In this document: piece after piece, positions 12,479-49,996 of the stretch
How positions within the stretch are numbered: position 1 is the first letter of the stretch
Layout: each line of letters opens with the position of its first letter
Source: an uncultured Nitrospirota bacterium
GTDB taxonomy: Bacteria; CG2-30-53-67
Length of the DNA: 64,000 bases
Direction: 5' to 3'
Assembly: GCA_945786985.1 (NCBI GenBank)
Contig: CALZGC010000039.1
Coordinates: 495-64,494 of the forward strand
Made by a program: the position numbers and the translations under genes
Notes under the pieces: model-generated
The model's database searches: none
What the model saw: the letters and a program-made list of their open reading frames with translations, nothing else
Told to the model about the DNA's origin: nothing

Positions 12479-12528
12479 TGTGGCCCTCACACGTGACGGC
12501 GCAACCTGCCCGATTCAGCAGGTGAAAG

Positions 12529-23951: not shown

Positions 23952-24305
23952 ATGCATTCCGAGAGAAGAAGCTCTCCTCGGGTTCCCGTCTCGGTCACCG
24001 TCACCTACCGGGTGGACGGCCACGAGAGAGAGGGAACCTACCGGGTGGAATCGGTGAATGTAAGCGAGGGCGGTGTTTTCGTTGCCACCGACGTGCCCCT
24101 GGGACTCGGGACGGAGGTACATCTGGAGTTTCACCTTCCGAATCAGAGTGAGTCCATTCAGGCTTCCGGAAGGATCGTCTGGTACGGCCGGGCGGAAACA
24201 GCCGGAGGGGGGATGGTCCTGGGGAAAGGCATTCAGTTCACAGATTGTACGGAGCGGTGCCGTCAGCACCTGGCAACCTATGTGGCTCAATACCAAAGGT
24301 CGTAG
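23952..24305 (+). CDS. PilZ-domain protein (c-di-GMP receptor candidate)
   Basis: RxxxR (RRSSPR) and N/DxSxxG (NVSEGG) PilZ motifs. Starts 4 nt after the kinase stop. Confidence 0.8.
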   Translation: MHSERRSSPRVPVSVTVTYRVDGHEREGTYRVESVNVSEGGVFVATDVPLGLGTEVHLEFHLPNQSESIQASGRIVWYGRAETAGGGMVLGKGIQFTDCTERCRQHLATYVAQYQRS

Positions 24306-25986: not shown

Positions 25987-26004
25987 GCCGAGAGACAAGA
26001 ATCG

Positions 26005-29238: not shown

Positions 29239-29545
29239 CCAGGCTGTAGGCAAATCCGGGGGCACAGCCAAATCCGGTGCCTGCGGCCGTAAGCCGGAAG
29301 ACGCACCCGGAATACAACAACCTCCCCCCAAGCCCTGCTGCCGCCAAATGCCGCAGGGCGTGTGCCATATGCCCACCCCCGTTCACGCCAGGCCTTTGGG
29401 AACCGCTGTGACCGACCCTCGCTACCAGCAGCGGCGCACAAAACATCCTCTCGTGCAGCATTTTTTCCTTGAAAAAACAAAGGATTGAATATAGACTGCT
29501 GCCAGTCGAATTGATCGGTCTACCATATTTGCGCGTCCTGGATCG

Positions 29546-29561
29546 TGGTACGGGAATTGCA
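29546..29561 (+). promoter_or_regulatory. sigma-54 (−24/−12) promoter for the regulator–cytochrome operon
   Basis: TGGTACGGGAATTGCA matches the TGGCAC-N5-TTGCW spacing exactly, ~58 nt upstream of ATG 29619. An A/T inverted repeat (TTTTTTCCTTGAAAAAA, ~29462) and direct repeats (GCAAATCCGG...CCAAATCCGG, ~29250–29283) lie further upstream. Confidence 0.6.
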
Positions 29562-29618
29562 CGTTAGCACCCTATTACTCTTGCCCCCGCAGACAGCTGT
29601 TACGAAAAGGACCCGCAC

Positions 29619-29996
29619 GTGCATAAAAACATCCTGGTCGTTGATGATGAGAAGCTTGTCCGGTGGACCATCCAGCAATCCATGGGGAAACAGAATGTCC
29701 GAGTGGTCTCCGCTGCAACCGGGGCGGAAGCCATGGAGAAGCTCCGGGAAGAACGTTTTGACATCATCATCACCGACTACGTCATGCCCGGGTTCAATGG
29801 CATTGAAGTGGCTCGCCGGGCCCGCCTGCTTCAGCCGGAGAGCAAGATTATCATGATTACAGCCCACGAAATGATTCTGGACCGGGATGAGGCGGACCGG
29901 GCGGGCGTGAGCAGTATCATCAACAAGCCGTTCATGATCAGTGAGGTCAGAAACATCATCTCGGATCTCCTGTCGGAACAGAGAGACTCTGCATAA
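29619..29996 (+). CDS. single-domain response regulator (CheY-like)
   Basis: VVDDEKLVRW...IIITDYVMPG...phospho-Asp pocket. Its stop overlaps the start of the next gene (TAATG). Confidence 0.88.
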   Translation: MHKNILVVDDEKLVRWTIQQSMGKQNVRVVSAATGAEAMEKLREERFDIIITDYVMPGFNGIEVARRARLLQPESKIIMITAHEMILDRDEADRAGVSSIINKPFMISEVRNIISDLLSEQRDSA

Positions 29997-31348
29997 TGAT
30001 TCCTACGCGTATACTTTGTATCACAGCACTCTTGCTATGTCTTTACACACAACTGACCCTGGCGCCGGTGGAAGGGGCCGACGCGCTACCTCATGCCGGC
30101 CTGGCCGACGCCGCACCGGAGGTCTGCTTCAAATGCCACAAGGATCTTGCCACGCCCCCCGAAGGAGGCGTCGTGCATGCAGCCTTCGGAATGGGAGACT
30201 GTTCCATCTGCCATCTGCTGGGAGCGGACAACCGGTTCCAACTCATAGACACCGGCGCCGGCCTCTGTTACATGTGTCACGATGCGAAAAACACCCAGGC
30301 CAAGGTCCACAGCCCCGTAGCCTCAGGGGACTGCATCTTGTGTCACAATCCGCACCAGTCCCCCAACCCGAAGATGCTCATGGACTATCCGGTGAACAAG
30401 CTTTGCTTCAACTGCCACGATGAAGCGATGGCAAAGCATGCCTACGTCCATGTTCCCGTCTCAGAAGGGGAATGCACGAGCTGCCACGACCCCCATCAAT
30501 CGCCGCACGACAAACAGCTTCGGGAAGAGGGAAACAACCTATGCCTCATGTGTCATGCGGACAAAGAAGAGGATCTGAAGACCAAGAAACACGTGCATGA
30601 GGCCGTCGAAATGGTGGGGTGCACGGGCTGCCACAGTCCGCATGCCTCGGACACCAAATACCAGCTGCTCAGCGCACCCCCTGACCTCTGCTACACCTGC
30701 CACTCCGACAAAGAGGGGCCGGTGAAAACGCCGCACGGCGCCATCGAGATGAAAGGGAGCTGCGTCAACTGTCATGACCCCCATGCCTCCGACCATGAAG
30801 CACAATTAAAGGCTGCGGAAAACAAAGACCTCTGTCTCAAGTGTCACGATCGCAGGCGGAAGACAAAAAGCGGCTATATCCTCAACATGAAGGCCCATCT
30901 GGAAAAGAACCCGGAGCACCACGGGCCCATATTAATGGGAGACTGCGCGTCCTGCCACAACCCGCACGGCTCCGACGAATGGCGGATGCTGAAAAAACCT
31001 TTTCCGGCGGAGTTTTACGTCCCCTTTAAGCTGGAACGCTATGGCCTCTGTTTCGAATGCCATGACGAATCACTGGTTCTGGACGAGAACACGACGGCCA
31101 ACGGGTTCAGAAATGGCGAGATGAACCTGCATTTTGTCCACGTGAGCGATCCCCGTAAGGGTAGACGGTGCGTCGTCTGCCACGACGCCCATGCAGCCCA
31201 AGGACCGAAACATGTTCGGGAGACCGCCAAATTCGGGTCATGGGACCTTCCCATACGCCTCGAACTCCTGGAAGACGGCGGACGCTGTGCCCCCGGATGT
31301 CATCTCCCCCGGGCATACAACCGTAGCAAACCGGTAAAAAACAGGTGA
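29996..31348 (+). CDS. multihaem c-type cytochrome (14 CxxCH plus a C-terminal CxxxCH)
   Basis: Signal peptide. Motifs CFKCH, CSICH, CYMCH, CILCH, CFNCH, CTSCH, CLMCH, CTGCH, CYTCH, CVNCH, CLKCH, CASCH, CFECH, CVVCH, CAPGCH. Recurrent CxxCHxPHxS spacing typical of doubled-CXXCH/c7-type polymers. Confidence 0.9.
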   Translation: MIPTRILCITALLLCLYTQLTLAPVEGADALPHAGLADAAPEVCFKCHKDLATPPEGGVVHAAFGMGDCSICHLLGADNRFQLIDTGAGLCYMCHDAKNTQAKVHSPVASGDCILCHNPHQSPNPKMLMDYPVNKLCFNCHDEAMAKHAYVHVPVSEGECTSCHDPHQSPHDKQLREEGNNLCLMCHADKEEDLKTKKHVHEAVEMVGCTGCHSPHASDTKYQLLSAPPDLCYTCHSDKEGPVKTPHGAIEMKGSCVNCHDPHASDHEAQLKAAENKDLCLKCHDRRRKTKSGYILNMKAHLEKNPEHHGPILMGDCASCHNPHGSDEWRMLKKPFPAEFYVPFKLERYGLCFECHDESLVLDENTTANGFRNGEMNLHFVHVSDPRKGRRCVVCHDAHAAQGPKHVRETAKFGSWDLPIRLELLEDGGRCAPGCHLPRAYNRSKPVKNR

Positions 31349-31519
31349 TTATGACAAAAACATGCTGTAAGATGGGCGAAATCGCTCACAAACTGCGGTA
31401 AAAAACTCATTTCCGCCAAGACGAATCCTTTGTATAATGACAACTAAAGGGGTGTTGAGCCAAGCTAACCAACTGAAAACAAAAGATTTAGCTAAAAGTC
31501 AACCCCTTGAAACCCTCGT

Positions 31520-31535
31520 TGGCACAGCTCTTGCT
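31520..31535 (+). promoter_or_regulatory. sigma-54 (−24/−12) promoter for the 4-haem cytochrome gene
   Basis: TGGCACAGCTCTTGCT, a perfect TGGCAC-N5-TTGC. Followed by a ~175-nt leader before ATG 31710. Confidence 0.65.
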
Positions 31536-31709
31536 TACGTTATATGGAGAGAAAACAAATTTAAGTGATTTTTGGATTACGATAATCGGTGCAAACCAAA
31601 GAAAAAAGGAGGTGAAGATTCAACCCAGGGAAGGGGACGCGGGGGTTGGTTCCCCAAAAAGATTTCAAAGTTCACCATAGGGTGATTTCACAATCTTAGA
31701 GGAAGGAAG

Positions 31710-32378
31710 GTGTACATCATGAAAAAAGTATCCGCTATCATCTTTGCCATCATTTTCGCAGCCATGACGGCGGGCGTTGCCGTCGCCGGCCCCGGACCTG
31801 GAACCGGGATTTCGGGATCCAAGCATGACCTCAGCGGCTTGGTCCCCGGAGAGGTCCAGCTCTGCATCTACTGCCATGCGCCCCACAACGGAACCGGAGC
31901 CGCAGGCGGCCTTCTCTGGAATCATTCGCCGTCGGCAGCAACCTACAATATGTATACCGAGGAGGCTGCGAGTGACCCCGCTTTCGCGAACTTCATCAAC
32001 GGCGCGCAGGATGCGGAGCCGACGGGCTCTGCAAAACTCTGCCTGAGCTGTCATGACGGCACGGTGGCCATCGACGCCTACGGTGGCGCTGCAGGGACGG
32101 TCAACATGACCGCCTTTCCCAACGCTAATCTGGGCCTCGACCTGTCGGACGACCACCCCATCTCCATCGTCTACGATGACGCGGCTGATCTCGGTCTGTT
32201 TCCGAAGGCCGCCGTCAACCTGGGTGCGGTGAATCTCACGGACATTCTCGAGAACGACAAAATCAACTGCGTGGCCTGCCACGATGTGCACAACTCTCCC
32301 GGAGAGACTGTGGACGCTCCCTTCGTCAGGGTGACCATGACCGGCAGTGCTCTCTGCCTGAGGTGCCACGACAAATAA
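31710..32378 (+). CDS. tetrahaem c-type cytochrome (doubled-CXXCH-type)
   Basis: Signal peptide. SKHDLS motif, then CIYCH, CLSCH, CVACH, CLRCH. Confidence 0.88.
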   Translation: MYIMKKVSAIIFAIIFAAMTAGVAVAGPGPGTGISGSKHDLSGLVPGEVQLCIYCHAPHNGTGAAGGLLWNHSPSAATYNMYTEEAASDPAFANFINGAQDAEPTGSAKLCLSCHDGTVAIDAYGGAAGTVNMTAFPNANLGLDLSDDHPISIVYDDAADLGLFPKAAVNLGAVNLTDILENDKINCVACHDVHNSPGETVDAPFVRVTMTGSALCLRCHDK

Positions 32379-32409
32379 GCCTTGGCATGATCCTCAACCG
32401 AATGCAGCA

Positions 32410-32442
32410 AAGCCCCTATGAGATTTCATAGGGGCTTTTTTG
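32410..32442 (+). terminator. Rho-independent terminator
   Basis: GCCCCTATGAGATTTCATAGGGGC hairpin followed by TTTTTT. Confidence 0.7.
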
Positions 32443-32610
32443 GGGCTCTCACCGAGGAAATCTTTGGCAAGCGTCCACTGCAAAGGGGGGTTTTTCGACG
32501 GCATCGGATGGACTGGGCACAGAATCGAGGCACCGCAGTCAGGGCAAAGGAATCTTTCGGCCCTCGAGTGTGGGGTGCGATAGCGTGTCAATTTTGCCTT
32601 AAATACTTTA

Positions 32611-32639
32611 TTGACACGTTTGAACCTGCATGATAAACT
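32611..32639 (+). promoter_or_regulatory. candidate sigma-70-type promoter for the NHL-lipoprotein operon
   Basis: TTGACA-N17-TAAACT, ~80 nt upstream of ATG 32716. Confidence 0.3.
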
Positions 32640-32715
32640 TGAATATATTCAAAAGGTTAGCTTGTCAGGAAAGTGCCCAGATCTTTCAGCATCATTCCAA
32701 TTGGAGACAGAGAAG

Positions 32716-35169: not shown

Positions 35170-35266
35170 GCACCCGTAGAAATACCACAAAACACAGTGC
35201 GAACGCCCCCGCAGGCCGACCCATACCGCCTGCGGCGGGTTAGTCCTCATGGGAGGATACCCAGGC

Positions 35267-36349
35267 ATGAACCGTTACACCCGCATGCTGCTCATCGGCA
35301 CAGCCATTCTGGCTGTCACCCTTGGGCAGGCCTGCCAGCAAACGACCAAGCACAAGATCCTCAGCACACTCTTTGATGGGGTGCCCCCTCTGGAGACGGG
35401 CACACAGGAAGAAAGCACCGCGTCCGCGGAAACAGGCGCTGAGAATGCCGATCTCCAAGGGGCGGCGGAAAGAACGTACCGGGCAAGAAGAGCCCAGACC
35501 GCCCGAGCCTCAGGAATGGTCAAACACCCCCCCTATGCGGCGAAGATGTGCGACGGCTGCCACCAGGTGCGTCAAACCGCATCAGTCGCGCCCATGGGTT
35601 TTTCCCTGCGGGCGGAGAAAGACAAACTGTGCAGCCTGTGTCATGAGGACATGTCGCAGGAGGCACTGCAGGGGCGCTACCGGTGGATCCACGGTCCGGT
35701 TCAGTACGGCGCGTGTCTTGAGTGTCATAACCCCCACGAATCCCCCTTTCCCTTCATGCGGAAACAACCGACGGTCCGCAAACTTTGCCTCAATTGCCAC
35801 GACGAAGGGTGGTTCCGGGCTTCCGAGATTCATAGCGGCTTCGACGAAACCGAATGCACAGACTGCCACAACCCTCACGGCAGTCAGTTTCGCTATATGT
35901 TGACTTTCAGCGATGAAGGCACCGTTGAAGCAGCCGCAAAGACCGCTGCGCCTGCCAGCAGGAAACGTGAACAGGTGGCATCTTCTGCTCCGGCTGTGTC
36001 GGAACCCGATCGCGAATCACTCCTCGCCTTCCTGCGGCACTGGGAGCAATGTTGGGAGACCCTAGACCTAGAGTGCTATCTCGGCTTTTACGCACCGGAT
36101 TTCCGCCAAGGTGCCCGGGACCTGGAAGCGTGGAAGGCCTACCGGACGTCCGTCTTTGAAAAGAGCCGAAAAATAGACCTGACACTGGAGCGCATGGATG
36201 TCCAAAGTCTTGGAGAGACCTTTCAGATCACAGCCTTGCAGCGCTATCGGTCCGATCGGCACGAGGATGTGGGTACCAAGAAGCTTCGGGTGCGCCGAGA
36301 GGCAGACAGCTGGCAGATTATGCGGGAGACCTGGACCCCGAACAATTAG
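35267..36349 (+). CDS. pentahaem c-type cytochrome lipoprotein with a C-terminal copy of the same ~115-aa uncharacterised domain
   Basis: Signal/lipobox AVTLGQAC. CDGCH, CSLCH, CLECH, CLNCH, CTDCH. C-terminus LLAFLRHWEQCWETLDLECYLGFYAPDFRQG...WQIMRETW is homologous to the NHL-protein repeats. Confidence 0.88.
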   Translation: MNRYTRMLLIGTAILAVTLGQACQQTTKHKILSTLFDGVPPLETGTQEESTASAETGAENADLQGAAERTYRARRAQTARASGMVKHPPYAAKMCDGCHQVRQTASVAPMGFSLRAEKDKLCSLCHEDMSQEALQGRYRWIHGPVQYGACLECHNPHESPFPFMRKQPTVRKLCLNCHDEGWFRASEIHSGFDETECTDCHNPHGSQFRYMLTFSDEGTVEAAAKTAAPASRKREQVASSAPAVSEPDRESLLAFLRHWEQCWETLDLECYLGFYAPDFRQGARDLEAWKAYRTSVFEKSRKIDLTLERMDVQSLGETFQITALQRYRSDRHEDVGTKKLRVRREADSWQIMRETWTPNN

Positions 36350-36391
36350 CCCGGAAATGTCGTCAACGAGCTTTTTGAGCCAGGGCTTTTC

Positions 36392-38434
36392 GTGAAGAGA
36401 AAGACAATAAGACGGATGAAACGTCAAATGGCCGAAGGGCTCCTCGCATGCGTGATGTTCGCATTTTGCGTTCTATCCGCCTATGGTTCCGCCGGTGCCC
36501 AGGAAACGAGTCCCTTCCGCATTACCGGAACCCGAGGGTTTGTCGGCTTCGGATGGGAGCGCGAGGATGAGACACGGCAGGAAAGCCGCGGTCTTGGTGA
36601 CGAAATTGAGGATGTGGACAGCGAGATCTTTGAAGAGATCGGTCTCGGTGTCGACGGATTTGTCTACCATCCGCTGCTCTTAGACTTCCGGGCCGATGTG
36701 GATGCGGTCTTCAAACAGGTCGACTTCAGCACAAACACCAGAGCCATTCCGGACCAGGATGAGAATTATCTCAACTACGACATCTTTGCGAGAATCCTCA
36801 AAGAGCACCGGCTCTCTTTCTGGCTGAGCTCCAACCAGCAGCGCCAGGATATCAACACACCCTTCTTTGACACAAGCCGTATTACCACCACGCAGCACAG
36901 CGCCGGCTTCACCTACCTGCATCCGGTCATTCCGGTCTGGTCCGGCTACTCCCATGAGACCTCCGATGGCGAAGGGAGCGTACAACGGGATGAACAGCGG
37001 GACAAACTCTATGTCGAGGCCAAGAATGAGGGTCCGCTGGGCGACAGCCTGCTCCGGTATGAAAAGGAGGAGCGCGCCGACGATTTCAGCGATGTCGATT
37101 TGAAGATCGACGCCCTGGACTTCACCAACATCTTCCCCTTCGGCGTCGACGACCGCCATGCGCTTCGCAGCCAGTTGCGCTACCAGGACCAGCGGGGCAC
37201 GAGCCCCATTGAAACCACTTTCATCGATGAAAGTCTGGACTTTCGCCACAGCCAGCGGTTGCGAACTTATGCAGGCTTTTCCTATTACGATTCGGATTTC
37301 GATGTTCAGACCACCAACCAGACACGCTACCGCGCCGGCTTGGAGCATCATCTCTACGACAGCCTGGTCACCACCCTGGAAGGGCGCGTCGAGAATTACG
37401 AAATCGATGAAGGCTTCAACGACAGCTACGCAGGAGATCTCGGCCTCAATTACCGGAAAAGGCTGCCCCTCGGTTCGCTGGATCTGCGGTACCGCGGCGT
37501 CATCCGGCGGGAGGACGAAGACTTCTCCGGTAATGTGACCAGCGTTTTCCTCGAGAGTCACACCTTCGGTGAGCTCATTTTCGACGAGATCGTTCTAAAC
37601 CGGGATTTCGCGGTGTCGGACTCCATAGAGCTCGTCGACGCGAGCGGCGTCCCCCTCGTCGATCCCGGCCTCAACCCCGTCACCGAGGGAATCCACTATC
37701 AGATTATAGTCGTGGGAAAGGTGACGCGAATCAGGCTCATTCCGCCGGCGGGCAGCTTTCTTTCCGGTGCGGATGTCTTCGTCAATTACGATTCCGTACC
37801 ACAACCGCCCATCGAGTTTACCTCCTATGAGCAGTTCTACGGGGCCACACTCAATCTCAAAGATATCTGGAGGGTCTACTACGCGGGCGCACGAATCAAC
37901 CAGGTATTGCGAGACGGTGTTGATTTCGGCAACCGGCTGGATGACATCCGGGACCGTACCTATGGCCTTGAAGCCAACTACGGCTTTTCAAGTAGCAAAG
38001 CGGAGAGAAAAGAGCACCACTCCAAAAGGAATCCCTTTGAGACGGACTTCCTTTCCCAGGAGTTTCAAATCCACCTGTGGAACAACGCGGACCTCTTCTT
38101 GACCGGTATTTACTCGGACACGGTCACCTTCGAAGACGTCGATCGCACGATCGATCGCGTTGCCTCGGCGCGGCTCGCCGTCTTTCTTTCGAAGCTTCGG
38201 TGGGCTCAATGGGATATTGAAACGACGTATGCGAACCGCGATCTCATTAATGAAGACCAGGAGAGCGTGAAGCTTCGCACCGAATTTTTCTGGCGGTACA
38301 AACGGATCGATTTCACCGTCACTTACGAGTATTGGAACCTTGACCGGGAAGTATTCGGAGACGAAGACAGCCACTACTTCTTTGTCCGTTTGAGAAGATT
38401 TTTCGGAACACAAGACCGGAGGGCACGGCGATGA
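36392..38434 (+). CDS. large outer-membrane beta-barrel protein (candidate porin of a porin–cytochrome conduit)
   Basis: Signal peptide (LLACVMFAFCVLSAYGSAGAQE). 680 aa of alternating aromatic/polar beta-strand patterns, rich in Y/F/W/D/R, with an aromatic C-terminal region (FTVTYEYWNL...HYFFVRLRRFF). Similar in size to MtrB-class 26-strand barrels. Stop overlaps the next gene's start (ATGA). Confidence 0.55.
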   Translation: MKRKTIRRMKRQMAEGLLACVMFAFCVLSAYGSAGAQETSPFRITGTRGFVGFGWEREDETRQESRGLGDEIEDVDSEIFEEIGLGVDGFVYHPLLLDFRADVDAVFKQVDFSTNTRAIPDQDENYLNYDIFARILKEHRLSFWLSSNQQRQDINTPFFDTSRITTTQHSAGFTYLHPVIPVWSGYSHETSDGEGSVQRDEQRDKLYVEAKNEGPLGDSLLRYEKEERADDFSDVDLKIDALDFTNIFPFGVDDRHALRSQLRYQDQRGTSPIETTFIDESLDFRHSQRLRTYAGFSYYDSDFDVQTTNQTRYRAGLEHHLYDSLVTTLEGRVENYEIDEGFNDSYAGDLGLNYRKRLPLGSLDLRYRGVIRREDEDFSGNVTSVFLESHTFGELIFDEIVLNRDFAVSDSIELVDASGVPLVDPGLNPVTEGIHYQIIVVGKVTRIRLIPPAGSFLSGADVFVNYDSVPQPPIEFTSYEQFYGATLNLKDIWRVYYAGARINQVLRDGVDFGNRLDDIRDRTYGLEANYGFSSSKAERKEHHSKRNPFETDFLSQEFQIHLWNNADLFLTGIYSDTVTFEDVDRTIDRVASARLAVFLSKLRWAQWDIETTYANRDLINEDQESVKLRTEFFWRYKRIDFTVTYEYWNLDREVFGDEDSHYFFVRLRRFFGTQDRRARR

Positions 38435-39618: not shown

Positions 39619-39656
39619 GGACGGACGACTCCCTTTTGCACAGTGGAGGAATCAAC

Positions 39657-41402: not shown

Positions 41403-41415
41403 GCGAGGTTCGGCT

Positions 41416-42387: not shown

Positions 42388-42438
42388 CCTGGGTATCGCC
42401 TTAGAAGTGTTCGCCCCGTCTCTGCGCTTACCGCGAAT

Positions 42439-42477
42439 CTCGTAATAGATTGACTCATGCAATAGACGGGCTAGTAC
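42439..42477. repeat. MITE-like element, copy C (solo terminal inverted repeat, opposite orientation)
   Basis: CGTAATAGATTGACTCATGCAATAGACGGGCTAGTAC is the reverse-complement of the ATTGCATGAGTNAATCTATTACG terminus (22/23) and matches the flanking CCCGG-CTAG motif of copy B's 3' end. Confidence 0.5.
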
Positions 42478-43001
42478 TTGTCTGTATGGCAGGCAATGCA
42501 AAGCTCCGTGGAGGAGTGCCCCACGGTCAGTTCCCTCGAGGCGGTGCACTCTGCAGCGGGATCCAGCGCCATGGCCGCCGTCTGCATCCCGGTCGACAGA
42601 TCACTCTTAAGTCTGTGACAGGAAACGCAGCTCACCTTCCCATCAACCAGACGGATATTCTTGTCCAGCAGCAGCCTCGGCCGATACCCCCTTGGGTCCC
42701 GCATGGCATAGTGATCATAGGACATGCCCACCGGATGATTGACCGTCCGGGATCCGCTTATCTGGAAAGGGGCGTCGGCATCTTTCAATGAGATACTTGT
42801 TGCTGTGGCCCCATTGTGGCATCCCAGGCAGTCACTCGCCGTACTGTCAGGAGGTACTGCAGCCGCACTGACGGCGAAGGCTTGCACATCGGCACCGAAC
42901 ACGAAGTTCCTGAACATCTCAGAGAGGCTTCCCGCCACCGCTGTGCGCGGTGCAACACAAATCAGAGAAAAGACCATCAGGAGTGTACAAAACCTCTGCA
43001 T
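42471..43001 (-). CDS. trihaem c-type cytochrome
   Basis: Signal peptide MQRFCTLLMVFSLICVAPRTAVAG. CLGCH, CVSCH, CIACH. Confidence 0.8.
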   Translation of the reverse strand: MQRFCTLLMVFSLICVAPRTAVAGSLSEMFRNFVFGADVQAFAVSAAAVPPDSTASDCLGCHNGATATSISLKDADAPFQISGSRTVNHPVGMSYDHYAMRDPRGYRPRLLLDKNIRLVDGKVSCVSCHRLKSDLSTGMQTAAMALDPAAECTASRELTVGHSSTELCIACHTDKY

Positions 43002-43490
43002 AGCCAACCCTCCTCCTGTCATGCCCGAGGGGCAATTACCACACGGTATCGGTTCTAAAAGAATGGATTGAAAAAGAGGATGGGCCGCCGACGTCAGAGA
43101 GCCTGCCTGAAGACCCATACGTTCATCCGTCTCTTCGGCAGCCCCTCTACCATCACCTTGCGGCCCCAGGCAGGTGGCTTTGCGTCCGATCCCTTTCGGG
43201 AAAGGTTGCCTTTGTCACAAAACTAATCAGTACATCGGGAGAAAGGCAAAATACTTTAGAATAAACTGGTTCCCCCGATGGGTCTGGCCGGCTTGCGAAC
43301 GTATTCGGTGGCAAACCTGACCTCTCCACGAAGCCTTTCTAATGTTCTTACCACTGAATCCTTTGGCCCGCAACCGATGGGCGGACAAGATCTGCACCAT
43401 GGCGTCCGGCATGGCCGCCGACCTTTTCGCACGGGCCAGTGTGGGAAAAACATTGTGTTTCTATCATAACCTAAGAACTTGTTTATGCGG

Positions 43491-43521
43491 AAAAAAAAGG
43501 CCGCCGGGGAGTCCGGCGGCC
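43491..43521 (-). terminator. Rho-independent terminator after the 10-haem giant cytochrome gene
   Basis: Minus-strand GGCCGCCGG-ACUCC-CCGGCGGCC followed by TTTTTTTT. Confidence 0.8.
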
Positions 43522-43552
43522 TTCTCACGATTGTCCGGCATCAGGTGGATAC

Positions 43553-45688: not shown

Positions 45689-45757
45689 GGCTCGGCCTCC
45701 ATTCCAAACGGCGGGTGATCATTTTGTAGATCAAATGGCTCCCTTAGGAAGGTATTG

Positions 45758-45786
45758 AATATAACACAGAATGAAAGTTTTTTCAA
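45758..45786 (-). promoter_or_regulatory. candidate sigma-70 promoter with extended −10 for the 43553..45688 cytochrome
   Basis: Minus strand TTGAAA-N17-TGTTATATT, ~65 nt upstream of the start codon. Confidence 0.4.
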
Positions 45787-45915
45787 AAGATTCTGAAGAA
45801 ATCTCGCCAAGGAAATGCGAAAATTAAGACGTTTCGTTAGGCGTTCAGACGCTCAGAGGAAATAAGAGCGAAAAGTCAAACTTACAGAAGACAAAAATGG
45901 CAGCAGGATGGAGGC

Positions 45916-46103
45916 CCTTAACCCGGAGATTGCATGAGTAAATCTATTACGAGGCTGGATAGTCTGCCACATGCGGCGTTACAGAAGATCTTCTGACTTC
46001 AATATGTTTACAGCCAGAAGATCTTTTGCGCCCTGCCTGTAGCGCATCCAAAACCTCTGGGGCCTCTCATGACGATCAACTCATGCAATATCCGGGCTAA
46101 GTG
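45916..46103. repeat. MITE-like element, copy B (full length ~188 bp, ~27-bp terminal inverted repeats)
   Basis: 5' CCTTAACCCGGAGATTGCATGAGTAAATCTATTACGAGGC ... 3' CAACTCATGCAATATCCGGGCTAAGTG. The termini are reverse-complements of each other. Confidence 0.6.
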
Positions 46104-46202
46104 CCCAAACAATAAACCGCGCTACTCTGTGATCGAAGCGTTGTGCACCGACAGAGGAGGATCAACCAAATCGAAACCACTGACTGTCACCAATTCATGA
46201 TG

Positions 46203-46233
46203 CAAAATCCCGGGCCACAAGGCGTGGCCCGGG
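46203..46233 (-). terminator. candidate Rho-independent terminator
   Basis: Minus-strand perfect 10-bp stem CCCGGGCCAC-GCCUU-GUGGCCCGGG followed by AUUUUG. Confidence 0.45.
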
Positions 46234-46263
46234 ATCTTCAGTATAACCGCTGCGCTTCAAGTT

Positions 46264-46524
46264 TTAAAACGAGCTTGCTCCATGTCCGTGGCAGTTTCCG
46301 GCCATACAACCGGTACTTTTGTTACCTCCCATTTGATCGGGATGGCAGGTTGAGCAGAAAGACCGGCCGTTTGTCGTTGCGTCACTGTTACTCTGTGAGA
46401 CATCAAGGACCCTGACGAGATCGGGGTCTTCACCTGGAATCGACCAATCCGGCGTGAGCGGCGTCGATCCGTTTTTGGAGTAGATAATCGGCTTCAAATT
46501 GGCCAGGTTTGTGTAAACCATACC
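46264..46524 (-). CDS. small Cys/His-rich ORF (86 aa) with strong RBS; possibly the C-terminal remnant of a cytochrome gene
   Basis: GGAGGTG-N6-ATG. MVYTNLANLKPIIY...SFCSTCHPDQMGGNKSTGCMAGNCHGHGASSF. No signal peptide. The C-terminal G.C...CHG resembles the C-termini of the 14- and 12-haem cytochromes. Confidence 0.3.
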   Translation of the reverse strand, partial: GMVYTNLANLKPIIYSKNGSTPLTPDWSIPGEDPDLVRVLDVSQSNSDATTNGRSFCSTCHPDQMGGNKSTGCMAGNCHGHGASSF

Positions 46525-46562
46525 ATTCACCTCCGCCCGTGTCCGGCATTGTGGCAGTCGCT

Positions 46563-47122
46563 TCACGCAAGGACATCACCCTGTTGGTATCCGCTCCCGG
46601 GCTGCAGACTGACCTGCCGACTCGCATCAGCTGGACCGTGCTGGTCGCCTTTGCCGTCGGTCCAAGCCGTGCAGATATCTGTGAGCGCCTGCGTTGGCGG
46701 CGTGACACTTGCCGGGTATGAGTTGTCATGACAATCGAGGCAGAACTCCGTCATGCTCGCCGGCACCCGACCGTCGTCCGGGTCGGGATCGGCCAAAAAG
46801 ATCCACCGCATGCGGACTGTGGCAATCGGTACACTCGATCTTCGCTCCGCTGCAGACCATATCCGCATAAGAGACATCGTGATGGGTATTCCGATCCGCT
46901 CCGGAGCGGGATACCATGGTTTCTGTGCCGGCAAAGAGGAACTGAATGTCCTGAGCCGGCGCGCCATCATGGCACCCAAAAGAGAGCTCTTCTTCTCCGT
47001 TGGCAACGGGTGCACCCGCCACCGTCCCCGAGAGGAAGGGCGGGTGCTATCGGTTCCGCCGTGACAGTACGGGCAGTTCCCTTCCAGGGCTTCCAACCGA
47101 CGGTGGTGCTCGGTCAGTGCCT
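46563..47122 (-). pseudogene. 5'-truncated, frameshifted remnant of a tetrahaem (31710-type) cytochrome paralogue
   Basis: Haem-motif segments in the same order as the 4-haem protein are split over two frames: NCPYCHGG (frame A), LSFGCHDG with the first Cys lost and ECTDCHSPHA (frame B), EFCLDCHD (frame A). There is no signal peptide and no room for one before the upstream gene's stop at 47123. Confidence 0.45.
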
Positions 47123-49891
47123 CTACTGCTCGTGGCACGTGGTGCAGTCGCGGAAGTCCTCGAGAATGTACGCCCCCAGGTCAGGATCCCACACGAAACT
47201 GTGGCAGTTCAGGCAGTCGTAGGTGGCATCCGGCACTCCGTCGCCGTTCGCATCAGGTTTCGGCACGATACTGTCCGGTATGATTGGCGTTCCCACGCGC
47301 TGGTGGTGCAGGTTGGGTATCGACGCACTGGTGAGGAGAAAGCCCTCCGAATGAGGATGACAGGTTGTACAAGTATTGCCGTCTAAGTGACTCTGCCCAC
47401 CGGGCGCCGTCCCATCTGACTGATGGTGGTTCGTGGCGCTGTGGCAGGTTTCACAGACATTCTCCTCGTGAGGCGGTCCGTCCGCAAAGGACCCCGGCCC
47501 GGAACGTGCCGTGAAGTCAATAACGCTGCCCGGAATGACGCTTCCCGGAACCGTCGATCTGACCAGTTTCAAGTTCGTCTGTTCAAACATCGGGTTATGG
47601 CAGTCGACACACTGGTTGGTATAGCTATAAGTGCCCGACCCGTTCACATCGCTGTGCGTCAGGACATTCGGCGCCGCCGGGAAGCCGTCTTTGAGGACGC
47701 CCGTTGGCGCATGACACTGCTCGCACTTGGAATCGGGAATGGGAGAACTGAAATCTGAAGTGCTGACGTGACAGTAATCACAGTTGTTCAGAAACTCCTG
47801 CGTGTCGTGCGGGGCCGCCGGTGTACCTCCTGTCGGTGCGAACCCATCGGCATGGGAATGACAGGCGGTGCAGGCAAGTCCGTTATTGTGATCCTGCCCA
47901 CCCGGTGCCGTCCCATCGCTCTGTTGGTGGTTGGTACGGGTATGGCAGGTATTGCAAATGTTCTCATCGTAAGGCGCGCCATCGGCAAAGGAGCCCGGCC
48001 CTGTGGGCGCGGTGAACTCCACAAAATTCTCCACCGACCCGCCCGTCGTCTGATTATCGAAACAGATGGTCCGTTTGATCAGCTTGCCGTAGGTGGTGCC
48101 GAACTTGTTGTTCTGCTCCTGGGTATGGGGGTTATGGCAGTTCACGCAGTCCGCCCCCCAGGTGCCATATTTGTTCCCGAGGATCCCCGATGAGTGGGTC
48201 ACGACATTCGCAGCCGAGCCGAACCCGAACGGATAAGCATCGGGGTACTGGGCTTTGAGGACACCGTTGAGCGGATCGGAGGTATCGTTCGGATCGGCGT
48301 GACACCGCTGGCACTGATAGCGGGTGTCATCGAGAAAATTGGTCAGATTGTGGCACTTGCCGCAGAACAGCGCATTGTTGTCCGGATGAATCGTGCCGTC
48401 CGGATTGAGAAGCTGACCCAGATGGGGCTCATCCCTCGGCGTGGTCACTGTACCACAGGTCGGAGGACCGCAGTCTTCTAAATCCGCCGCATCGGTCAGG
48501 TTGTCGCAATCGTTGTCGATCCCGTCGGTGCAGACTTCCAGATTGTCAGGATAGCGCTTCGGATTATTGTCATCACAGTCGGAGGCGCAGCGGGCCACCC
48601 CGTCGCCGTCTGCATCGACATCGGAGGAGAAATCGAGCCGGCTGTCACAATTGTTGTCTTTACCATCGCAGATGCGAAGCGCACCGGGGTAGACAGTCGG
48701 ATCGGTGTCGTCACAATCTCCGGCAGCCACGGCCACTCCGTCACCATCATTGTCACCTGCGACCGCGACGCAACTACTGTCCGCTGCATCGGTCATGCCG
48801 TCAAAGTCATTGTTGCAACCGTCACTGCAGGTCGGACTCCCCACCGGCCCTTCCAGCCCGATGAGGGAAGCGCCCACACAGTCACCGTTGGAGCAGGTGT
48901 CGCCGCTCGTACACGGGTCGCTGTCGTCGCACGCGCCGATGGCAAAGGTACAGTCGTTGTTGCAGCAAAGACCGCCGTCGCACTGCTCATCGGCCTCCAC
49001 GATGCCGTTGCCGCAAACGCCGACCGCATCACACCTGTCCGTAGCTTCGTTACAAGTCGTGCCGCCGGTACAGGGGTCGCCGGCAGAAACACAGGCGCCC
49101 GAGCCGTTGCAGCTCTCCGTGCCGTCACAGAAAACTCCGTTGGAACTGCAGGCCGTAGCGGTGCTCGAAAAAGTGCAGTCCGGATCGCAGCACTCGCCGC
49201 CATCACACTGCTCGCCGGTCTCCACGGTCCCGTTGCCACAAACGGCGCCCGTATCGCAGGTATCGGTCGATTCGATACAGTTCGTCCCGCCCGGACAGGG
49301 GTTGCCGGCGGAAACACAGCCGCCCGAGCCGTTGCAGCTCTCCGCGCCGTCACAGAAAAGACCGTTGTCCGTGCAGGCCATGCTGGGCATGGCAAAGGTA
49401 CAGTTGCTATTACAGCAAACGCCCCCATCACACTGCTCGCCACTCTCGACAATCCCGTTTCCGCACACCGGACCGCCGCCACCGACGCAGCCCCCCAGAT
49501 CCGCTGTGTCGACCCGGCGGTCGCAATCGTTGTCTTGGCCGTCGTCGCAGATCTCCTGATTGCCGGGAAAGTTTGACGCGTCGTTGTCATCGCAGTCCCC
49601 CCCACATCGCGGCACGCCGTCGCCGTCGGCATCCACATCGGTGCGGAAATCAAGGCGACCGTCGCAGTTAGTGTCGAGGCCGTCGCAGATACGGATCGCA
49701 CCCGGAAAGACGTTGGCGTTTGTGTCGTCGCAATCGACACCCGGGTTGGGACAGTCCGCTGCTCCGGCAACCCCGTAATCGTCGCCGTCAGCATCCACGC
49801 AGGCCGTCGCCGTGGGACTCGCCAGCGCAACGACCAGAAAACTAAAGAAAAAAACCGATAGGAAGGTTTTTAACGACCGTGTCTCTCTCAT
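47123..49891 (-). CDS. secreted 12-haem c-type cytochrome with putative metal-binding motif repeats and three Myxococcus cysteine-rich repeats (CGNGxVExGEQCDGG)
   Basis: Start MRETRSL after a GGAGGGG RBS; signal peptide. DADGDG/DCDD repeats at both ends of the N-region. Three ~75-aa CGNG...EQCDGG repeats. Twelve CxxCH. About 75% identical to the 43553 paralogue across the haem region. Confidence 0.88.
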   Translation of the reverse strand: MRETRSLKTFLSVFFFSFLVVALASPTATACVDADGDDYGVAGAADCPNPGVDCDDTNANVFPGAIRICDGLDTNCDGRLDFRTDVDADGDGVPRCGGDCDDNDASNFPGNQEICDDGQDNDCDRRVDTADLGGCVGGGGPVCGNGIVESGEQCDGGVCCNSNCTFAMPSMACTDNGLFCDGAESCNGSGGCVSAGNPCPGGTNCIESTDTCDTGAVCGNGTVETGEQCDGGECCDPDCTFSSTATACSSNGVFCDGTESCNGSGACVSAGDPCTGGTTCNEATDRCDAVGVCGNGIVEADEQCDGGLCCNNDCTFAIGACDDSDPCTSGDTCSNGDCVGASLIGLEGPVGSPTCSDGCNNDFDGMTDAADSSCVAVAGDNDGDGVAVAAGDCDDTDPTVYPGALRICDGKDNNCDSRLDFSSDVDADGDGVARCASDCDDNNPKRYPDNLEVCTDGIDNDCDNLTDAADLEDCGPPTCGTVTTPRDEPHLGQLLNPDGTIHPDNNALFCGKCHNLTNFLDDTRYQCQRCHADPNDTSDPLNGVLKAQYPDAYPFGFGSAANVVTHSSGILGNKYGTWGADCVNCHNPHTQEQNNKFGTTYGKLIKRTICFDNQTTGGSVENFVEFTAPTGPGSFADGAPYDENICNTCHTRTNHQQSDGTAPGGQDHNNGLACTACHSHADGFAPTGGTPAAPHDTQEFLNNCDYCHVSTSDFSSPIPDSKCEQCHAPTGVLKDGFPAAPNVLTHSDVNGSGTYSYTNQCVDCHNPMFEQTNLKLVRSTVPGSVIPGSVIDFTARSGPGSFADGPPHEENVCETCHSATNHHQSDGTAPGGQSHLDGNTCTTCHPHSEGFLLTSASIPNLHHQRVGTPIIPDSIVPKPDANGDGVPDATYDCLNCHSFVWDPDLGAYILEDFRDCTTCHEQ
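48860..49466 (-). repeat. tandem ~225-bp coding repeats (Myxococcus cysteine-rich repeat units) inside the giant cytochrome gene
   Basis: Near-identical DNA at ~49060–49150 and ~49290–49380 (…GCCGTTGCAGCTCTCCG(T/C)GCCGTCACAGAAAA…). The antisense ORF 48705..49559 displays the periodicity. Confidence 0.7.
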
Positions 49892-49980
49892 GGCCCCTCC
49901 AGAGATTAAGATGATGTGATGAATGCCTCGTATCCTCATATTTTCGAGCCGTTTCAGAAGCCAAACAAGCCAAAAAATAC

Positions 49981-49996
49981 GCAATATGCATGCCAC
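49981..49996 (-). promoter_or_regulatory. sigma-54 (−24/−12) promoter for the 12-haem giant cytochrome
   Basis: Minus strand TGGCATGCATATTGC (TGGCA-N6-TTGC, canonical spacing), ~75 nt upstream of the start at 49891. Confidence 0.55.

What the first reader, a model, noticed from the sequence alone, without database searches (positions are those of the whole stretch)
29546..49996. At least three sigma-54 promoters on cytochrome operons, with rpoN and an NtrC-type activator in the same window
Exact −24/−12 spacing is found at 29546 (TGGTAC-N5-TTGCA), 31520 (TGGCAC-N5-TTGCT) and on the minus strand at 49981 (TGGCAT-N5-TTGCG). Each lies 55–190 nt upstream of a cytochrome or regulator start.

An enhancer-binding protein gene (27868–29238) lies immediately upstream. 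The first promoter has an A/T inverted repeat at about −80 (IHF-like) and direct repeats at about −290 (candidate UAS).

This suggests a dedicated sigma-54 regulon for these electron-transfer genes.
Basis: partly seen in the sequence, partly recalled or inferred. Interest (0 to 1): 0.55.

Follow-up and report, generated by a model that had tools for sequence, protein, structure and literature searches.

The report
Sigma-54 promoters on cytochrome nanowire genes
Three genuine-looking sigma-54 promoters sit in front of multihaem cytochrome genes of an uncultured Nitrospirota bacterium, one of them an OmcE-type "nanowire" subunit, and they appear to be switched on by a neighbouring haem-sensing two-component system; this wiring was already predicted in Geobacter but recurs across several phyla.

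Summary
The three -24/-12 elements are at the stated coordinates. With an approximate sigma-54 matrix they are the three best hits in the whole 64 kb, and all are non-coding and co-oriented with the gene downstream. rpoN (11054-12490, -) and an NtrC-type activator (27868-29238) are real.

- **P2 (31520)** drives a monocistronic homologue of the OmcE nanowire cytochrome. It is conserved in every related locus examined, 10 of 10 across at least three phyla.
- **P1 (29546)** drives a receiver-domain gene plus an MtrA-like cytochrome. It is conserved in five relatives, but the closest relative has lost the -12 GC.
- **P3 (49995, -)** has one near-identical counterpart and one looser one among seven homologues.

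A tandem palindrome (TGnG-N8-CnCA, two copies about 21 bp apart) lies upstream of P2 only in loci that carry the adjacent kinase-activator pair. The kinase has a conserved periplasmic CXXCH haem motif.

Other cytochrome genes here use sigma-70-like promoters or a c-di-GMP riboswitch, so "dedicated regulon" overstates the case.

Leang et al. 2009 predicted the same two-promoter layout at the Geobacter sulfurreducens omcE locus. This is therefore a new member of a known kind.

The parts
11054..12490 (-). rpoN (sigma-54), inside the lptB-rpoN-hpf-ptsN-hprK-rapZ cluster
   Evidence: Pfam Sigma54_AID, Sigma54_CBD and Sigma54_DBD. TIGR02395 scores 442.7 bits against a cut-off of 277. RpoN box ARRTVTKYR is present.
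22437..23948 (+). Sensor histidine kinase HK1. It has two transmembrane segments, a periplasmic domain with one CXXCH haem-c motif (CYRCH), then HAMP, HisKA and HATPase domains. It is the likely cognate kinase of the activator.
   Evidence: Pfam HAMP, HisKA, HATPase_c, with weak Tll0287-like and Mcp40H-20 sensor hits. Sequence. CXXCH is conserved in all nine orthologues. HK1 lies directly next to the activator gene in L001, L002, L003, L042 and L074.
24073..27780 (+). Two genes lying between HK1 and the activator only in this lineage and L004, plus a similar kinase in L125. One is a double periplasmic binding-protein gene (24073-25986). The other is a HAMP-PAS-HisKA protein with no HATPase domain (26005-27780).
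   Evidence: Pfam results; synteny.
27868..29238 (+). NtrC-family enhancer-binding protein (receiver, AAA+ sigma-54 interaction domain, HTH_8). Its sigma-54 contact loop reads GAFTDA.
   Evidence: Pfam. NCBIfam best hits are AtoC and NtrC, both below cut-off. Sequence. GA[FY]TDA is conserved in the orthologues.
29340..29376 (.). Weak candidate activator sites for P1: GCCGCCAAATGCCGCA and TGTGCCATATGCCCAC, 21 bp apart, at -206 and -185 from the TGG.
   Evidence: Pair score p = 0.003 against shuffles. Pairs at the same position and spacing occur in L003 and L125. Degenerate, so tentative.
29461..29497 (+). A/T inverted repeat with an IHF-like core AAACAAAGGATTG (29475-29487). It overlaps a sigma-70-like promoter, TTGAAA-17-TAGACT (29469-29497).
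   Evidence: Sequence; promoter scan; block conserved in L004 and partly in L003.
29546..29561 (+). P1, -24/-12 element TGGTACGGGAATTGCA. Predicted transcription start near 29571.
   Evidence: 17.1 bits, the top hit of the window. Matching sites lie 60-85 nt upstream of the receiver gene in L001, L002, L003, L125 and L126. The -12 GC is lost in L004.
29619..31348 (+). P1 transcription unit: a stand-alone receiver-domain gene (29619-29996) whose stop overlaps the start (TAATG) of a 450-aa MtrA/DmsE-like multihaem cytochrome gene (29996-31348).
   Evidence: Pfam; NCBIfam DmsE family; PDB 6r2q_A, E = 2.6e-16; sequence.
31373..31409 (.). Candidate activator sites for P2: tandem 16-bp palindromes TGGGCGAAATCGCTCA and TGCGGTAAAAAACTCA, 21 bp apart, at -147 and -126 from the TGG.
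   Evidence: Conserved with the same spacing in L004, L001 and L002. Also found in L125, L042 and L074. Absent from the four loci without an adjacent activator gene.
31520..31535 (+). P2, -24/-12 element TGGCACAGCTCTTGCT, an exact consensus match. Predicted transcription start near 31545.
   Evidence: 16.7 bits. TGG and TTGC are invariant columns in the four-way alignment A1. Equivalent sites precede OmcE-like genes in L121, L042, L074 and L125-L128.
31605..31618 (+). Conserved Shine-Dalgarno-like element AAAGGAGGTGAAGA in the 173-nt leader, about 100 nt before the real start codon.
   Evidence: Conserved in L004, L001 and L002 and in L125. The leader has no significant fold and no Rfam match. 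Function unknown.
31719..32378 (+). OmcE-family tetrahaem cytochrome gene (219 aa).
   Evidence: PDB 9yuq (Desulfuromonas soudanensis OmcE bundle), E = 3.9e-21; PDB 7tfs (Geobacter sulfurreducens OmcE filament), E = 2.6e-18. All four CXXCH motifs and the extra histidines align.
32409..32443 (+). Intrinsic terminator after the OmcE-like gene.
   Evidence: Hairpin of -24.3 kcal/mol, z = -4.4, followed by a U-run.
47123..49891 (-). 922-aa secreted protein with MopE-type repeats and multihaem cytochrome domains; the gene driven by P3.
   Evidence: Pfam; the public gene call uses the same start.
49980..49995 (-). P3, -24/-12 element TGGCATGCATATTGCG. Predicted transcription start near 49970.
   Evidence: 15.8 bits, the third-best hit of the window. 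L123 carries TGGCATACATATTGCT 89 nt upstream of a 56%-identical homologue. L119 has a site 185 nt upstream of its homologue. The other five homologues have none.

Best explanation
The window comes from an uncultured Nitrospirota genome (GCA_947259695.1). It carries an OmcE-type extracellular-electron-transfer gene cluster in which key genes are transcribed by sigma-54 RNA polymerase.

**Proposed mechanism**
1. HK1 is a membrane histidine kinase whose periplasmic domain carries a c-type haem motif. It senses a periplasmic redox or ligand signal (inferred).
2. HK1 phosphorylates the NtrC-family activator encoded at 27868-29238 (inferred from conserved adjacency).
3. The activator binds as tandem dimers to paired TGnG-N8-CnCA palindromes about 21 bp apart, upstream of P2 and, less clearly, upstream of P1. 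This is inferred from co-occurrence and conservation. An IHF-like bend site may help at P1.
4. Using ATP, the activator remodels sigma-54 holoenzyme bound at the -24/-12 elements. This step is established for the family and not shown here.

**What each promoter does**
- P2 produces a monocistronic, terminator-bounded mRNA for the OmcE-like filament subunit.
- P1 produces a stand-alone receiver protein, possibly a feedback or phosphate-sink element, together with an MtrA-like periplasmic multihaem cytochrome.
- P3 drives a large MopE-repeat cytochrome. It may use the same activator or another one.

The rest of the cluster uses sigma-70-like promoters or a c-di-GMP riboswitch.
For: **The sites themselves**
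- The three sites are the top three matrix hits in 64 kb. All are non-coding and correctly oriented.
- rpoN is intact and has an RpoN box.
- The activator has all three NtrC-family domains.

**P2**
- TGG and TTGC are invariant in the alignment with L004, L001 and L002, while the flanks diverge.
- Leang et al. 2009 (PMC2725144, Additional file 4) predicted RpoN promoters upstream of G. sulfurreducens omcE (GSU0618) and of GSU0615-0617.

**P1**
- Canonical sites lie 60-85 nt upstream of the receiver gene in L001, L002, L003, L125 and L126.
- Among 79 loci with homologues of the 450-aa cytochrome, 10 have a site of at least 14 bits within 650 nt upstream, against 0.79 expected.

**P3**
- A near-identical element sits at the same distance in L123.

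**Link to the kinase-activator pair**
- The order kinase, activator, promoter, cytochrome recurs in Nitrospirota, an FCB-group genome and a Neomarinimicrobiota genome.
- The tandem palindrome is present upstream of P2 in all 7 loci with the adjacent pair and in 0 of 4 loci without it.
- The CXXCH motif of the kinase is conserved in all nine orthologues, 9 of 9.
- GAFTDA and GAYTDA loops are listed among functional variants in Desulfovibrio vulgaris activators (PMC4641369).
Against: - No transcription data exist for this organism. Everything rests on sequence and comparison.
- The closest relative, L004, has TGGTTCGAGAATCACC at P1, with no -12 GC, and no upstream palindrome pair. It keeps a sigma-70-like TTGAAA-17-TAAACT just upstream.
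- The P1 palindromes in the window are degenerate: 4.0 and 4.1 bits. In L001 and L002 the corresponding DNA is coding sequence, so no footprint can be read.
- P3 has a counterpart in only 2 of 7 homologues, and no true orthologue was available. Its palindrome pair is weak (p = 0.01).
- The sigma-54 matrix is my approximation of the published consensus.
- The palindrome model was refined on sites found with an earlier version of itself. The co-occurrence result for L125, L042 and L074 used only the first, independent model.
- The presence of IHF in this organism was not tested.
Confidence: 0.75

Rival explanations
1. P2, and perhaps P3, is a working sigma-54 promoter. P1 is a decaying remnant, and the receiver-cytochrome operon is really transcribed from the sigma-70-like promoter at 29469-29497.
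For: - The TTGAAA-17-TAGACT element is found by the scan and lies in the best-conserved block shared with L004.
- L004 has lost the -12 GC and has no upstream palindrome pair.
Against: - The window's P1 is the highest-scoring site in 64 kb.
- Five other lineages keep a canonical site at the same place.
- L003 keeps the TTGAAAAACAA block but has no -10 hexamer at the right spacing. That fits an IHF-like site better than a -35 box.
- The window, L003 and L125 share a palindrome pair at about -200.
Confidence: 0.15
2. The promoters are real, but one or more of them, P3 above all, is activated by a different enhancer-binding protein encoded elsewhere in the genome and not by the adjacent one.
For: - OmcE-like genes in L121 and L126-L128 have sigma-54 promoters with no adjacent activator gene and no tandem palindrome.
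- P3 lies 20 kb from the activator gene and has only a weak palindrome pair.
- L123 has none.
Against: - For P2, the palindrome pair co-occurs strictly with the adjacent kinase-activator pair: 7 of 7 loci against 0 of 4.
- For P1, gene order is conserved: activator, promoter, receiver.
Confidence: 0.3
3. The three matches are chance occurrences of a short degenerate motif with no promoter function.
For: Loose versions of the pattern are not enriched in the window.
Against: - At 15.5 bits or more there are 3 sites against 0.31 expected. All three are in the 12% non-coding fraction and correctly oriented.
- Each site has counterparts at the same place in related loci whose flanking DNA has diverged.
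Confidence: 0.03

Closest known systems
Predicted RpoN promoters at the omcE locus of Geobacter sulfurreducens: Promoter 15 upstream of GSU0615-0617 and Promoter 47 upstream of GSU0618 omcE (Leang et al. 2009, PMC2725144, Additional file 4)
   Same: - Two separate -24/-12 promoters, one before a multihaem-cytochrome/NHL unit and one before the monocistronic OmcE gene.
- The gene family is the same: the window protein matches the OmcE structures 7tfs and 9yuq.
- The cluster content is the same: multihaem cytochromes plus NHL beta-propellers.
   Different: - Different phylum: Nitrospirota against Desulfuromonadia.
- Here the first unit begins with a stand-alone receiver gene.
- Here the cluster is preceded by a haem-sensor kinase and an activator gene. 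No such adjacent pair is described for the Geobacter locus in the papers read.
- The Geobacter promoters are computational predictions as well. omcE changed 1.26-fold in an RpoN-overexpressing strain.
BccR and the cbcBA operon of G. sulfurreducens (bioRxiv 10.1101/2021.04.15.440034)
   Same: - An activator with receiver, AAA+ and HTH domains sits next to a sigma-54-dependent operon.
- That operon encodes a response-regulator protein plus cytochromes, and the activator is required for its induction.
   Different: - cbcBA encodes an inner-membrane bc-type quinone oxidoreductase, not an outer-surface filament or a periplasmic decahaem.
- bccR is divergently transcribed; here the activator gene is co-directional.
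- BccR's role is shown genetically. Nothing is shown here.
PilS-PilR control of the pilin gene pilA (established knowledge for Pseudomonas and Geobacter; not tested here)
   Same: A two-component kinase and NtrC-type activator drive a sigma-54 promoter in front of a short, monocistronic, terminator-bounded gene for the major subunit of an extracellular filament.
   Different: - The filament subunit is a tetrahaem cytochrome, not a type IV pilin.
- The kinase has a periplasmic haem-c motif, not the PilS membrane sensor.
- There is no sequence-level orthology.
DVU3142 and the ohcBAC octahaem cytochrome operon of Desulfovibrio vulgaris (PMC4641369)
   Same: A sigma-54 activator sits next to a multihaem cytochrome operon. 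The same paper lists GAFTDA and GAYTDA loops as functional variants.
   Different: - The cytochrome complex is different (Ohc).
- The arrangement is divergent.
- The activator subfamily is different.

Membership tests
Sigma-54 (-24/-12) promoter | GG and GC dinucleotides exactly 10 nt apart, within TGGCAC-N5-TTGCW | tested here: met
   All three sites have this spacing and carry 0, 1 or 2 mismatches to the 11 specified bases. They are the top three matrix scores in the window.
Sigma-54 (-24/-12) promoter | Non-coding position, co-oriented with a downstream gene and at a plausible distance from it | tested here: met
   58, 184 and 89 nt from the end of the motif to the start codon. The non-coding fraction of the window is 12%.
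Sigma-54 (-24/-12) promoter | Conservation of the element at the same place in related loci | tested here: met
   - P2: 10 of 10 related loci, although the L002 site scores only 11.8 bits.
- P1: 5 of 6; lost in L004.
- P3: 2 of 7 homologues.
Sigma-54 (-24/-12) promoter | The genome encodes sigma-54 and an AAA+ activator | tested here: met
   rpoN; activator gene.
Sigma-54 (-24/-12) promoter | Transcription starts about 12 nt downstream of the GC and depends on rpoN and an activator | not testable with these tools
   Needs dRNA-seq or 5'-RACE and mutants. The organism is known only from a metagenome-assembled genome.
NtrC-family two-component enhancer-binding protein | Receiver domain, AAA+ sigma-54 interaction domain and C-terminal HTH_8 | tested here: met
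   Pfam Response_reg 9.8e-30, Sigma54_activat 2.5e-67, HTH_8 2.5e-15.
NtrC-family two-component enhancer-binding protein | GAFTGA sigma-54 contact loop | tested here: inconclusive
   The loop reads GAFTDA. It is conserved as GA[FY]TDA across the orthologues. PMC4641369 lists this variant among those expected to keep activity. Activity was not tested here.
NtrC-family two-component enhancer-binding protein | Membership of a named equivalog (AtoC, NtrC, ZraR and others) | tested here: not met
   The best NCBIfam hits are AtoC at 475.6 bits (cut-off 714) and NtrC at 437.3 bits (cut-off 558.6), both below cut-off. It belongs to the family but to no named subfamily.
OmcE-family cytochrome nanowire subunit (protein encoded at 31719-32378) | About 200-230 aa, four CXXCH motifs plus four further conserved haem-ligand histidines, and sequence similarity to the solved OmcE filaments | tested here: met
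   9yuq E = 3.9e-21 and 7tfs E = 2.6e-18. The alignments cover all four CXXCH motifs and the KHD, PH, DHP and VH histidines.
OmcE-family cytochrome nanowire subunit (protein encoded at 31719-32378) | Cluster context: two multihaem cytochromes, two beta-propeller proteins and a large beta-barrel (bioRxiv 10.1101/2025.10.22.684050, section 8) | tested here: inconclusive
   The multihaem cytochromes and two NHL propellers are present. The 680-aa candidate barrel (36392-38434) has no Pfam or NCBIfam hit. Its single-sequence AlphaFold model is unusable, with pLDDT 31.6.
OmcE-family cytochrome nanowire subunit (protein encoded at 31719-32378) | Polymerises into an extracellular filament | not testable with these tools
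   Needs cryo-EM of cell appendages or heterologous expression.
IHF-assisted sigma-54 promoter | An IHF site (WATCAANNNNTTR) between the activator sites and the -24 element | tested here: inconclusive
   - P1: AAACAAAGGATTG (29475-29487), one mismatch. Related blocks occur in L004 (two mismatches) and L003 (one mismatch).
- P2: AAACAAAAGATTT (31477-31489), two mismatches.
- Such matches are common in A/T-rich DNA, and no IHF gene was sought.

The most novel reading that the evidence does not exclude
Sigma-54-dependent transcription is an ancestral, cross-phylum hallmark of OmcE-type cytochrome nanowire genes. In many lineages it is commanded by one conserved module: a periplasmic haem-c sensor kinase, a GAFTDA-loop activator, and tandem TGnG-N8-CnCA sites. 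If so, the long-sought signal that turns on cytochrome nanowire production could be found by studying this one kinase.
Probability: 0.4. Interest if true: 0.6.

Novelty: new member of a known kind. Interest (0 to 1): 0.4.

Why it matters
How bacteria decide when to build cytochrome nanowires is poorly understood, even in Geobacter. This locus and its relatives suggest a simple, testable circuit: a haem-containing periplasmic sensor kinase, then an NtrC-type activator, then sigma-54 promoters on the filament subunit and a periplasmic decahaem.

In the loci sampled here, the sigma-54 promoter in front of OmcE-like genes recurs in Nitrospirota, an FCB-group genome and a Neomarinimicrobiota genome. 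Leang et al. 2009 also predicted it in Geobacter. That gives three practical handles:
- a promoter and binding-site signature for finding such clusters;
- a way to predict their co-regulated genes;
- a candidate regulator to manipulate in cultivable relatives.

For this window alone it is a well-supported but unsurprising regulatory annotation.

Tried and rejected
- **Loose pattern counts.** TGG-N8-TTGC, and the consensus with 1-2 mismatches, show no enrichment. Only a weighted score, position and conservation separate the three sites from background.
The direct repeat at 29248-29277 is real but not conserved in L004. I rejected it as a footprint.
- **Exact search for the P2 palindrome.** TGNGC-N6-GCNCA finds only the P2 site and is not enriched. 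The useful form was a weight matrix with a pair-spacing test.
- **True orthologues of the P3 gene.**
  - The metagenome scan gave one relative, L080, on the same contig as L001. There the gene follows another cytochrome gene co-directionally, with no sigma-54 site.
  - The protein search found nothing above 60% identity.
  - L004's contig ends before the region.
- **Closer relatives of the OmcE-like gene for fine footprinting.** None exist between 89% and 49% identity.
- **RNA structure in the leader.** The Rfam E-value search of 29200-32700 gave only a chance-level hit. The P2 leader folds no better than shuffles, z = 0.37.
- **Barrel prediction.** The single-sequence AlphaFold2 model of the 680-aa putative barrel has pLDDT 31.6 and is unusable.
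- **Geobacter origin.** I first assumed the window was Geobacter because of the cytochromes and the riboswitch. The closest genomes are Nitrospirota.
- **More distant relatives.** In L005-L007 the gene after the activator starts at or next to its stop codon in L005 and L006, about 300 nt further on in L007, and none of the three has a sigma-54 site there.

Full report
**1. What is in the sequence**

- P1: 29546-29561 (+) TGGTACGGGAATTGCA
- P2: 31520-31535 (+) TGGCACAGCTCTTGCT
- P3: 49995-49980 (-) TGGCATGCATATTGCG

Counting loose matches gives no signal. TGG-N8-TTGC occurs 8 times against 9.7 expected. TGGCAC-N5-TTGCW with up to two mismatches occurs 27 times against 27.5.

I then scored with a position weight matrix, my own approximation of the published consensus mrNrYTGGCACG-N4-TTGCWNNw. 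The three sites are the three best in the window on either strand: 17.1, 16.7 and 15.8 bits. At 15.5 bits or more there are 3 sites against 0.31 expected. All three lie in the roughly 12% of the window that is non-coding and point at the next gene. The next-best hit, 13863 (+) at 14.5 bits, lies inside the lptA coding region on the opposite strand and is probably chance.

**2. Gene content**

- *rpoN* is at 11054-12490 (-). It has all three sigma-54 domains and an RpoN box. It sits in the usual lptB-rpoN-hpf-ptsN-hprK-rapZ cluster, so its presence in the window is not a specific link to the cytochromes.
- *The gene at 27868-29238* encodes a receiver, AAA+ and HTH_8 activator. It matches no named NCBIfam equivalog.
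- *Downstream genes*:
  - 29619-29996, a stand-alone receiver domain. Its stop overlaps the next gene's start (TAATG).
  - 29996-31348, a 450-aa multihaem cytochrome. It resembles MtrA/DmsE: PDB 6r2q_A, E = 2.6e-16.
  - 31719-32378, a 219-aa tetrahaem cytochrome.
  - Then two NHL beta-propeller proteins, two further multihaem cytochromes, a 680-aa protein with no family match, and a SurA-like isomerase.
- *On the minus strand*: a 215-aa cytochrome behind a c-di-GMP-I riboswitch, and two large MopE-repeat cytochromes.
- *Origin.* The window is contig CAMYNS010000010.1 of GCA_947259695.1. Its closest relatives are Nitrospirota metagenome-assembled genomes.

**3. What P2 drives**

The 219-aa protein is a clear homologue of the OmcE cytochrome nanowire subunit. 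It matches the Desulfuromonas soudanensis OmcE bundle (9yuq, E = 3.9e-21) and the Geobacter sulfurreducens OmcE filament (7tfs, E = 2.6e-18). All four CXXCH motifs and the additional ligand histidines align.

A 2025 preprint (10.1101/2025.10.22.684050) states that minimal omcE clusters encode two multihaem cytochromes, two beta-propeller lipoproteins, OmcE and a large beta-barrel. It also notes OmcE homologues in Nitrospirota. The window cluster fits, except that I could not confirm the barrel.

The gene is monocistronic. A hairpin of -24.3 kcal/mol (z = -4.4) with a U-run follows it. The next genes have their own strong sigma-70-like promoter, TTGACA-17-TAAACT at 32611-32639.

**4. Conservation of the promoters**

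*P2.* In the alignment with the orthologous intergenic regions of L004 (89% protein identity), L001 and L002 (about 40%), TGG and TTGC are invariant columns while the flanks are largely unalignable. Sigma-54 sites also precede OmcE-like genes in these loci:
- L121
- L042, an FCB-group genome
- L074, a Neomarinimicrobiota genome
- L125 to L128, four loci chosen only for contig length and identity; 14.8-17.6 bits, 137-315 nt upstream

*P1.* Canonical sites lie 60-85 nt upstream of the receiver gene in L001, L002 and L003 and in L125 and L126. The closest relative, L004, reads TGGTTCGAGAATCACC, with no -12 GC. More broadly, among 79 loci with homologues of the 450-aa cytochrome, 10 have a site of at least 14 bits within 650 nt upstream on the same strand, against 0.79 expected. 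These include a Desulfuromonadales locus and six Phycisphaerales loci.

*P3.* No true orthologue was available. Among seven homologues:
- L123 (56% identity over the cytochrome half) carries TGGCATACATATTGCT 89 nt upstream of the start, almost the same element at almost the same distance.
- L119 has a site 185 nt upstream.
- The other five have none.

**5. Who activates them**

*The kinase.* The order kinase, activator, sigma-54 promoter, cytochrome recurs in L001-L003 and L125 (Nitrospirota-like), L042 and L074. In the window and L004, two extra genes lie between the kinase and the activator. One is a double binding-protein gene. The other is a HisKA protein without an ATPase domain.

The kinase has two membrane segments flanking a periplasmic domain with a single CXXCH motif. 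That motif is conserved in all nine orthologues examined. The domain gives weak hits to the haem-binding Tll0287-like family.

*The contact loop.* The activator's sigma-54 contact loop is GAFTDA, not GAFTGA. It is conserved as GA[FY]TDA in the orthologues. Kazakov et al. list both variants among those compatible with activation (PMC4641369).

*Binding sites upstream of P2.* Two 16-bp palindromes of the form TGnGnn-WWWW-nnCnCA lie 21 bp apart: 31373-31388 and 31394-31409.
- They are conserved with the same spacing in L004, L001 and L002.
- A matrix built from those eight sites alone finds equivalent pairs, 20-21 bp apart, upstream of the P2-type promoter in L125, L042 and L074. The best single site in each scores p <= 0.01 against shuffles.
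- It finds none in L121 and L126-L128, which lack an adjacent activator gene.
- This 7-of-7 against 0-of-4 co-occurrence is the best evidence that the adjacent activator binds there.

*Binding sites upstream of P1 and P3.*
- Upstream of P1, degenerate pairs with the same spacing lie at about -206/-185 in the window (29340-29376, p = 0.003), in L003 and in L125.
- There are none in L004, which also lost its -12 element. There are none in L001 or L002, where the DNA is coding.
- P3 has only a weak pair (p = 0.01).

- The direct repeat at 29248-29277 is real but is not conserved in L004.
- The A/T inverted repeat (29461-29477) overlaps an IHF-like core, AAACAAAGGATTG, that recurs in L004 and L003.
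- It also overlaps a sigma-70-like promoter, TTGAAA-17-TAGACT.

**6. Comparison with what is known**

Leang et al. 2009 (PMC2725144) predicted 110 RpoN promoters in G. sulfurreducens. Their Additional file 4 lists two at the omcE locus:
- Promoter 15, TTGGCAATGCTCTTGCA, upstream of GSU0615-0616-0617 (cytochrome, cytochrome, NHL protein).
- Promoter 47, TTGGCGTGCTGTTGCA, upstream of GSU0618 (omcE).

The two-promoter layout of P1 and P2 was therefore already predicted for the Geobacter counterpart.

Sigma-54 activators next to cytochrome operons are also documented for BccR-cbcBA, with genetic proof, and proposed for DVU3142-ohcBAC. The logic also resembles PilS-PilR-pilA: a two-component system and sigma-54 driving the monocistronic gene of a filament subunit. 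That comparison rests on established knowledge and was not tested here.

What appears new, as far as the papers I read go:
- the occurrence in Nitrospirota;
- the breadth of the association between sigma-54 promoters and OmcE-like genes;
- the conserved haem-sensor kinase and GAFTDA activator with a definable binding-site pair.

The 2025 OmcE preprint does not mention sigma factors.

**7. Verdict**

- P2 is very probably a working sigma-54 promoter (about 0.9 or higher).
- P1 is probably one (about 0.75). A tandem or replacing sigma-70 promoter is a live alternative.
- P3 is likely one (about 0.65).

The adjacent activator is well supported for P2, plausible for P1 and open for P3. The set is not a dedicated regulon for all the electron-transfer genes in the window.

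It is a new member of a known kind. Interest is moderate, mainly because the comparison suggests a general and testable rule for the regulation of cytochrome nanowires.

Noticed in passing
window 43134-43220 (-), upstream of 42471-43118 (-): A c-di-GMP-I riboswitch (59.8 bits, gathering score 35) precedes a 215-aa cytochrome. That protein is only distantly similar to the OmcE-like one: 24% identity over 120 residues. Small cytochromes in this cluster are therefore under at least two different control systems.
   Followed up: partly
window 15217-15232 (+), 42458-42473 (-), 45919-45934 (+), 46084-46099 (-), 61935-61950 (-); L004 9177: A repeated element of about 35 nt, TAGCCCGGATATTGCATGAGTnnATCTATTACGAGG. 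The 16-nt core occurs 5 times against 0.14 expected. The copies at 45919 and 46084 face each other 181 bp apart, like a miniature transposable element. The copy at 42458 and the one in L004 begin at a gene's TAG stop codon. The element contains TTGCA but no GG at the -24 distance, so it is not a sigma-54 promoter.
   Followed up: partly
window 31605-31618 (+): A Shine-Dalgarno-like block, AAAGGAGGTGAAGA, lies in the leader of the OmcE-like gene about 100 nt before the real start. No conserved short reading frame follows it. It is kept in L004, L001, L002 and L125. The leader has several GGA motifs, no significant fold and no Rfam match. It may be a protein- or ribosome-binding element; that is speculation.
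   Followed up: partly
window 26005-27780 (+) and 24073-25986 (+): The HAMP-PAS-HisKA protein ends 25 residues after its HisKA domain and has no HATPase domain. It is conserved in that form in L004 (84% identity) and resembles the kinase upstream of the activator in L125. It follows a fused double periplasmic binding protein (PBP_like_2 plus Phosphonate-bd). Together they may be an accessory input to the activator.
   Followed up: no
L125 8013 (+): In the syntenic locus L125, a third sigma-54 site (TGGCAGGGATCTTGCT, 15.4 bits) lies 32 nt upstream of the 646-aa gene that corresponds to the window's 680-aa putative barrel. The window has no such site; only 42 nt separate the genes at 36349 and 36392.
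   Followed up: no
L023, L036, L037, L038, L043, L055 (Phycisphaerales genomes): Homologues of the 450-aa cytochrome in six Planctomycetota loci carry nearly identical sites, TGGCACGCCrTGTGCA, 30-67 nt upstream of the estimated start. No activator gene was found within the fetched flanks.
   Followed up: partly
window 22437-23948 (+): The kinase's periplasmic domain has a single CXXCH in the conserved context P-[PR]-C-[FY]-[RK]-C-H-[GS] in nine orthologues from three phylum-level groups. This suggests a covalently bound haem sensor.
   Followed up: partly
L122 5402 (+); L124 5728 (+): Strong sigma-54 sites (16.4 and 15.9 bits) precede unannotated genes just downstream of MopE-cytochrome homologues. 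This again shows how common such promoters are in these clusters.
   Followed up: no
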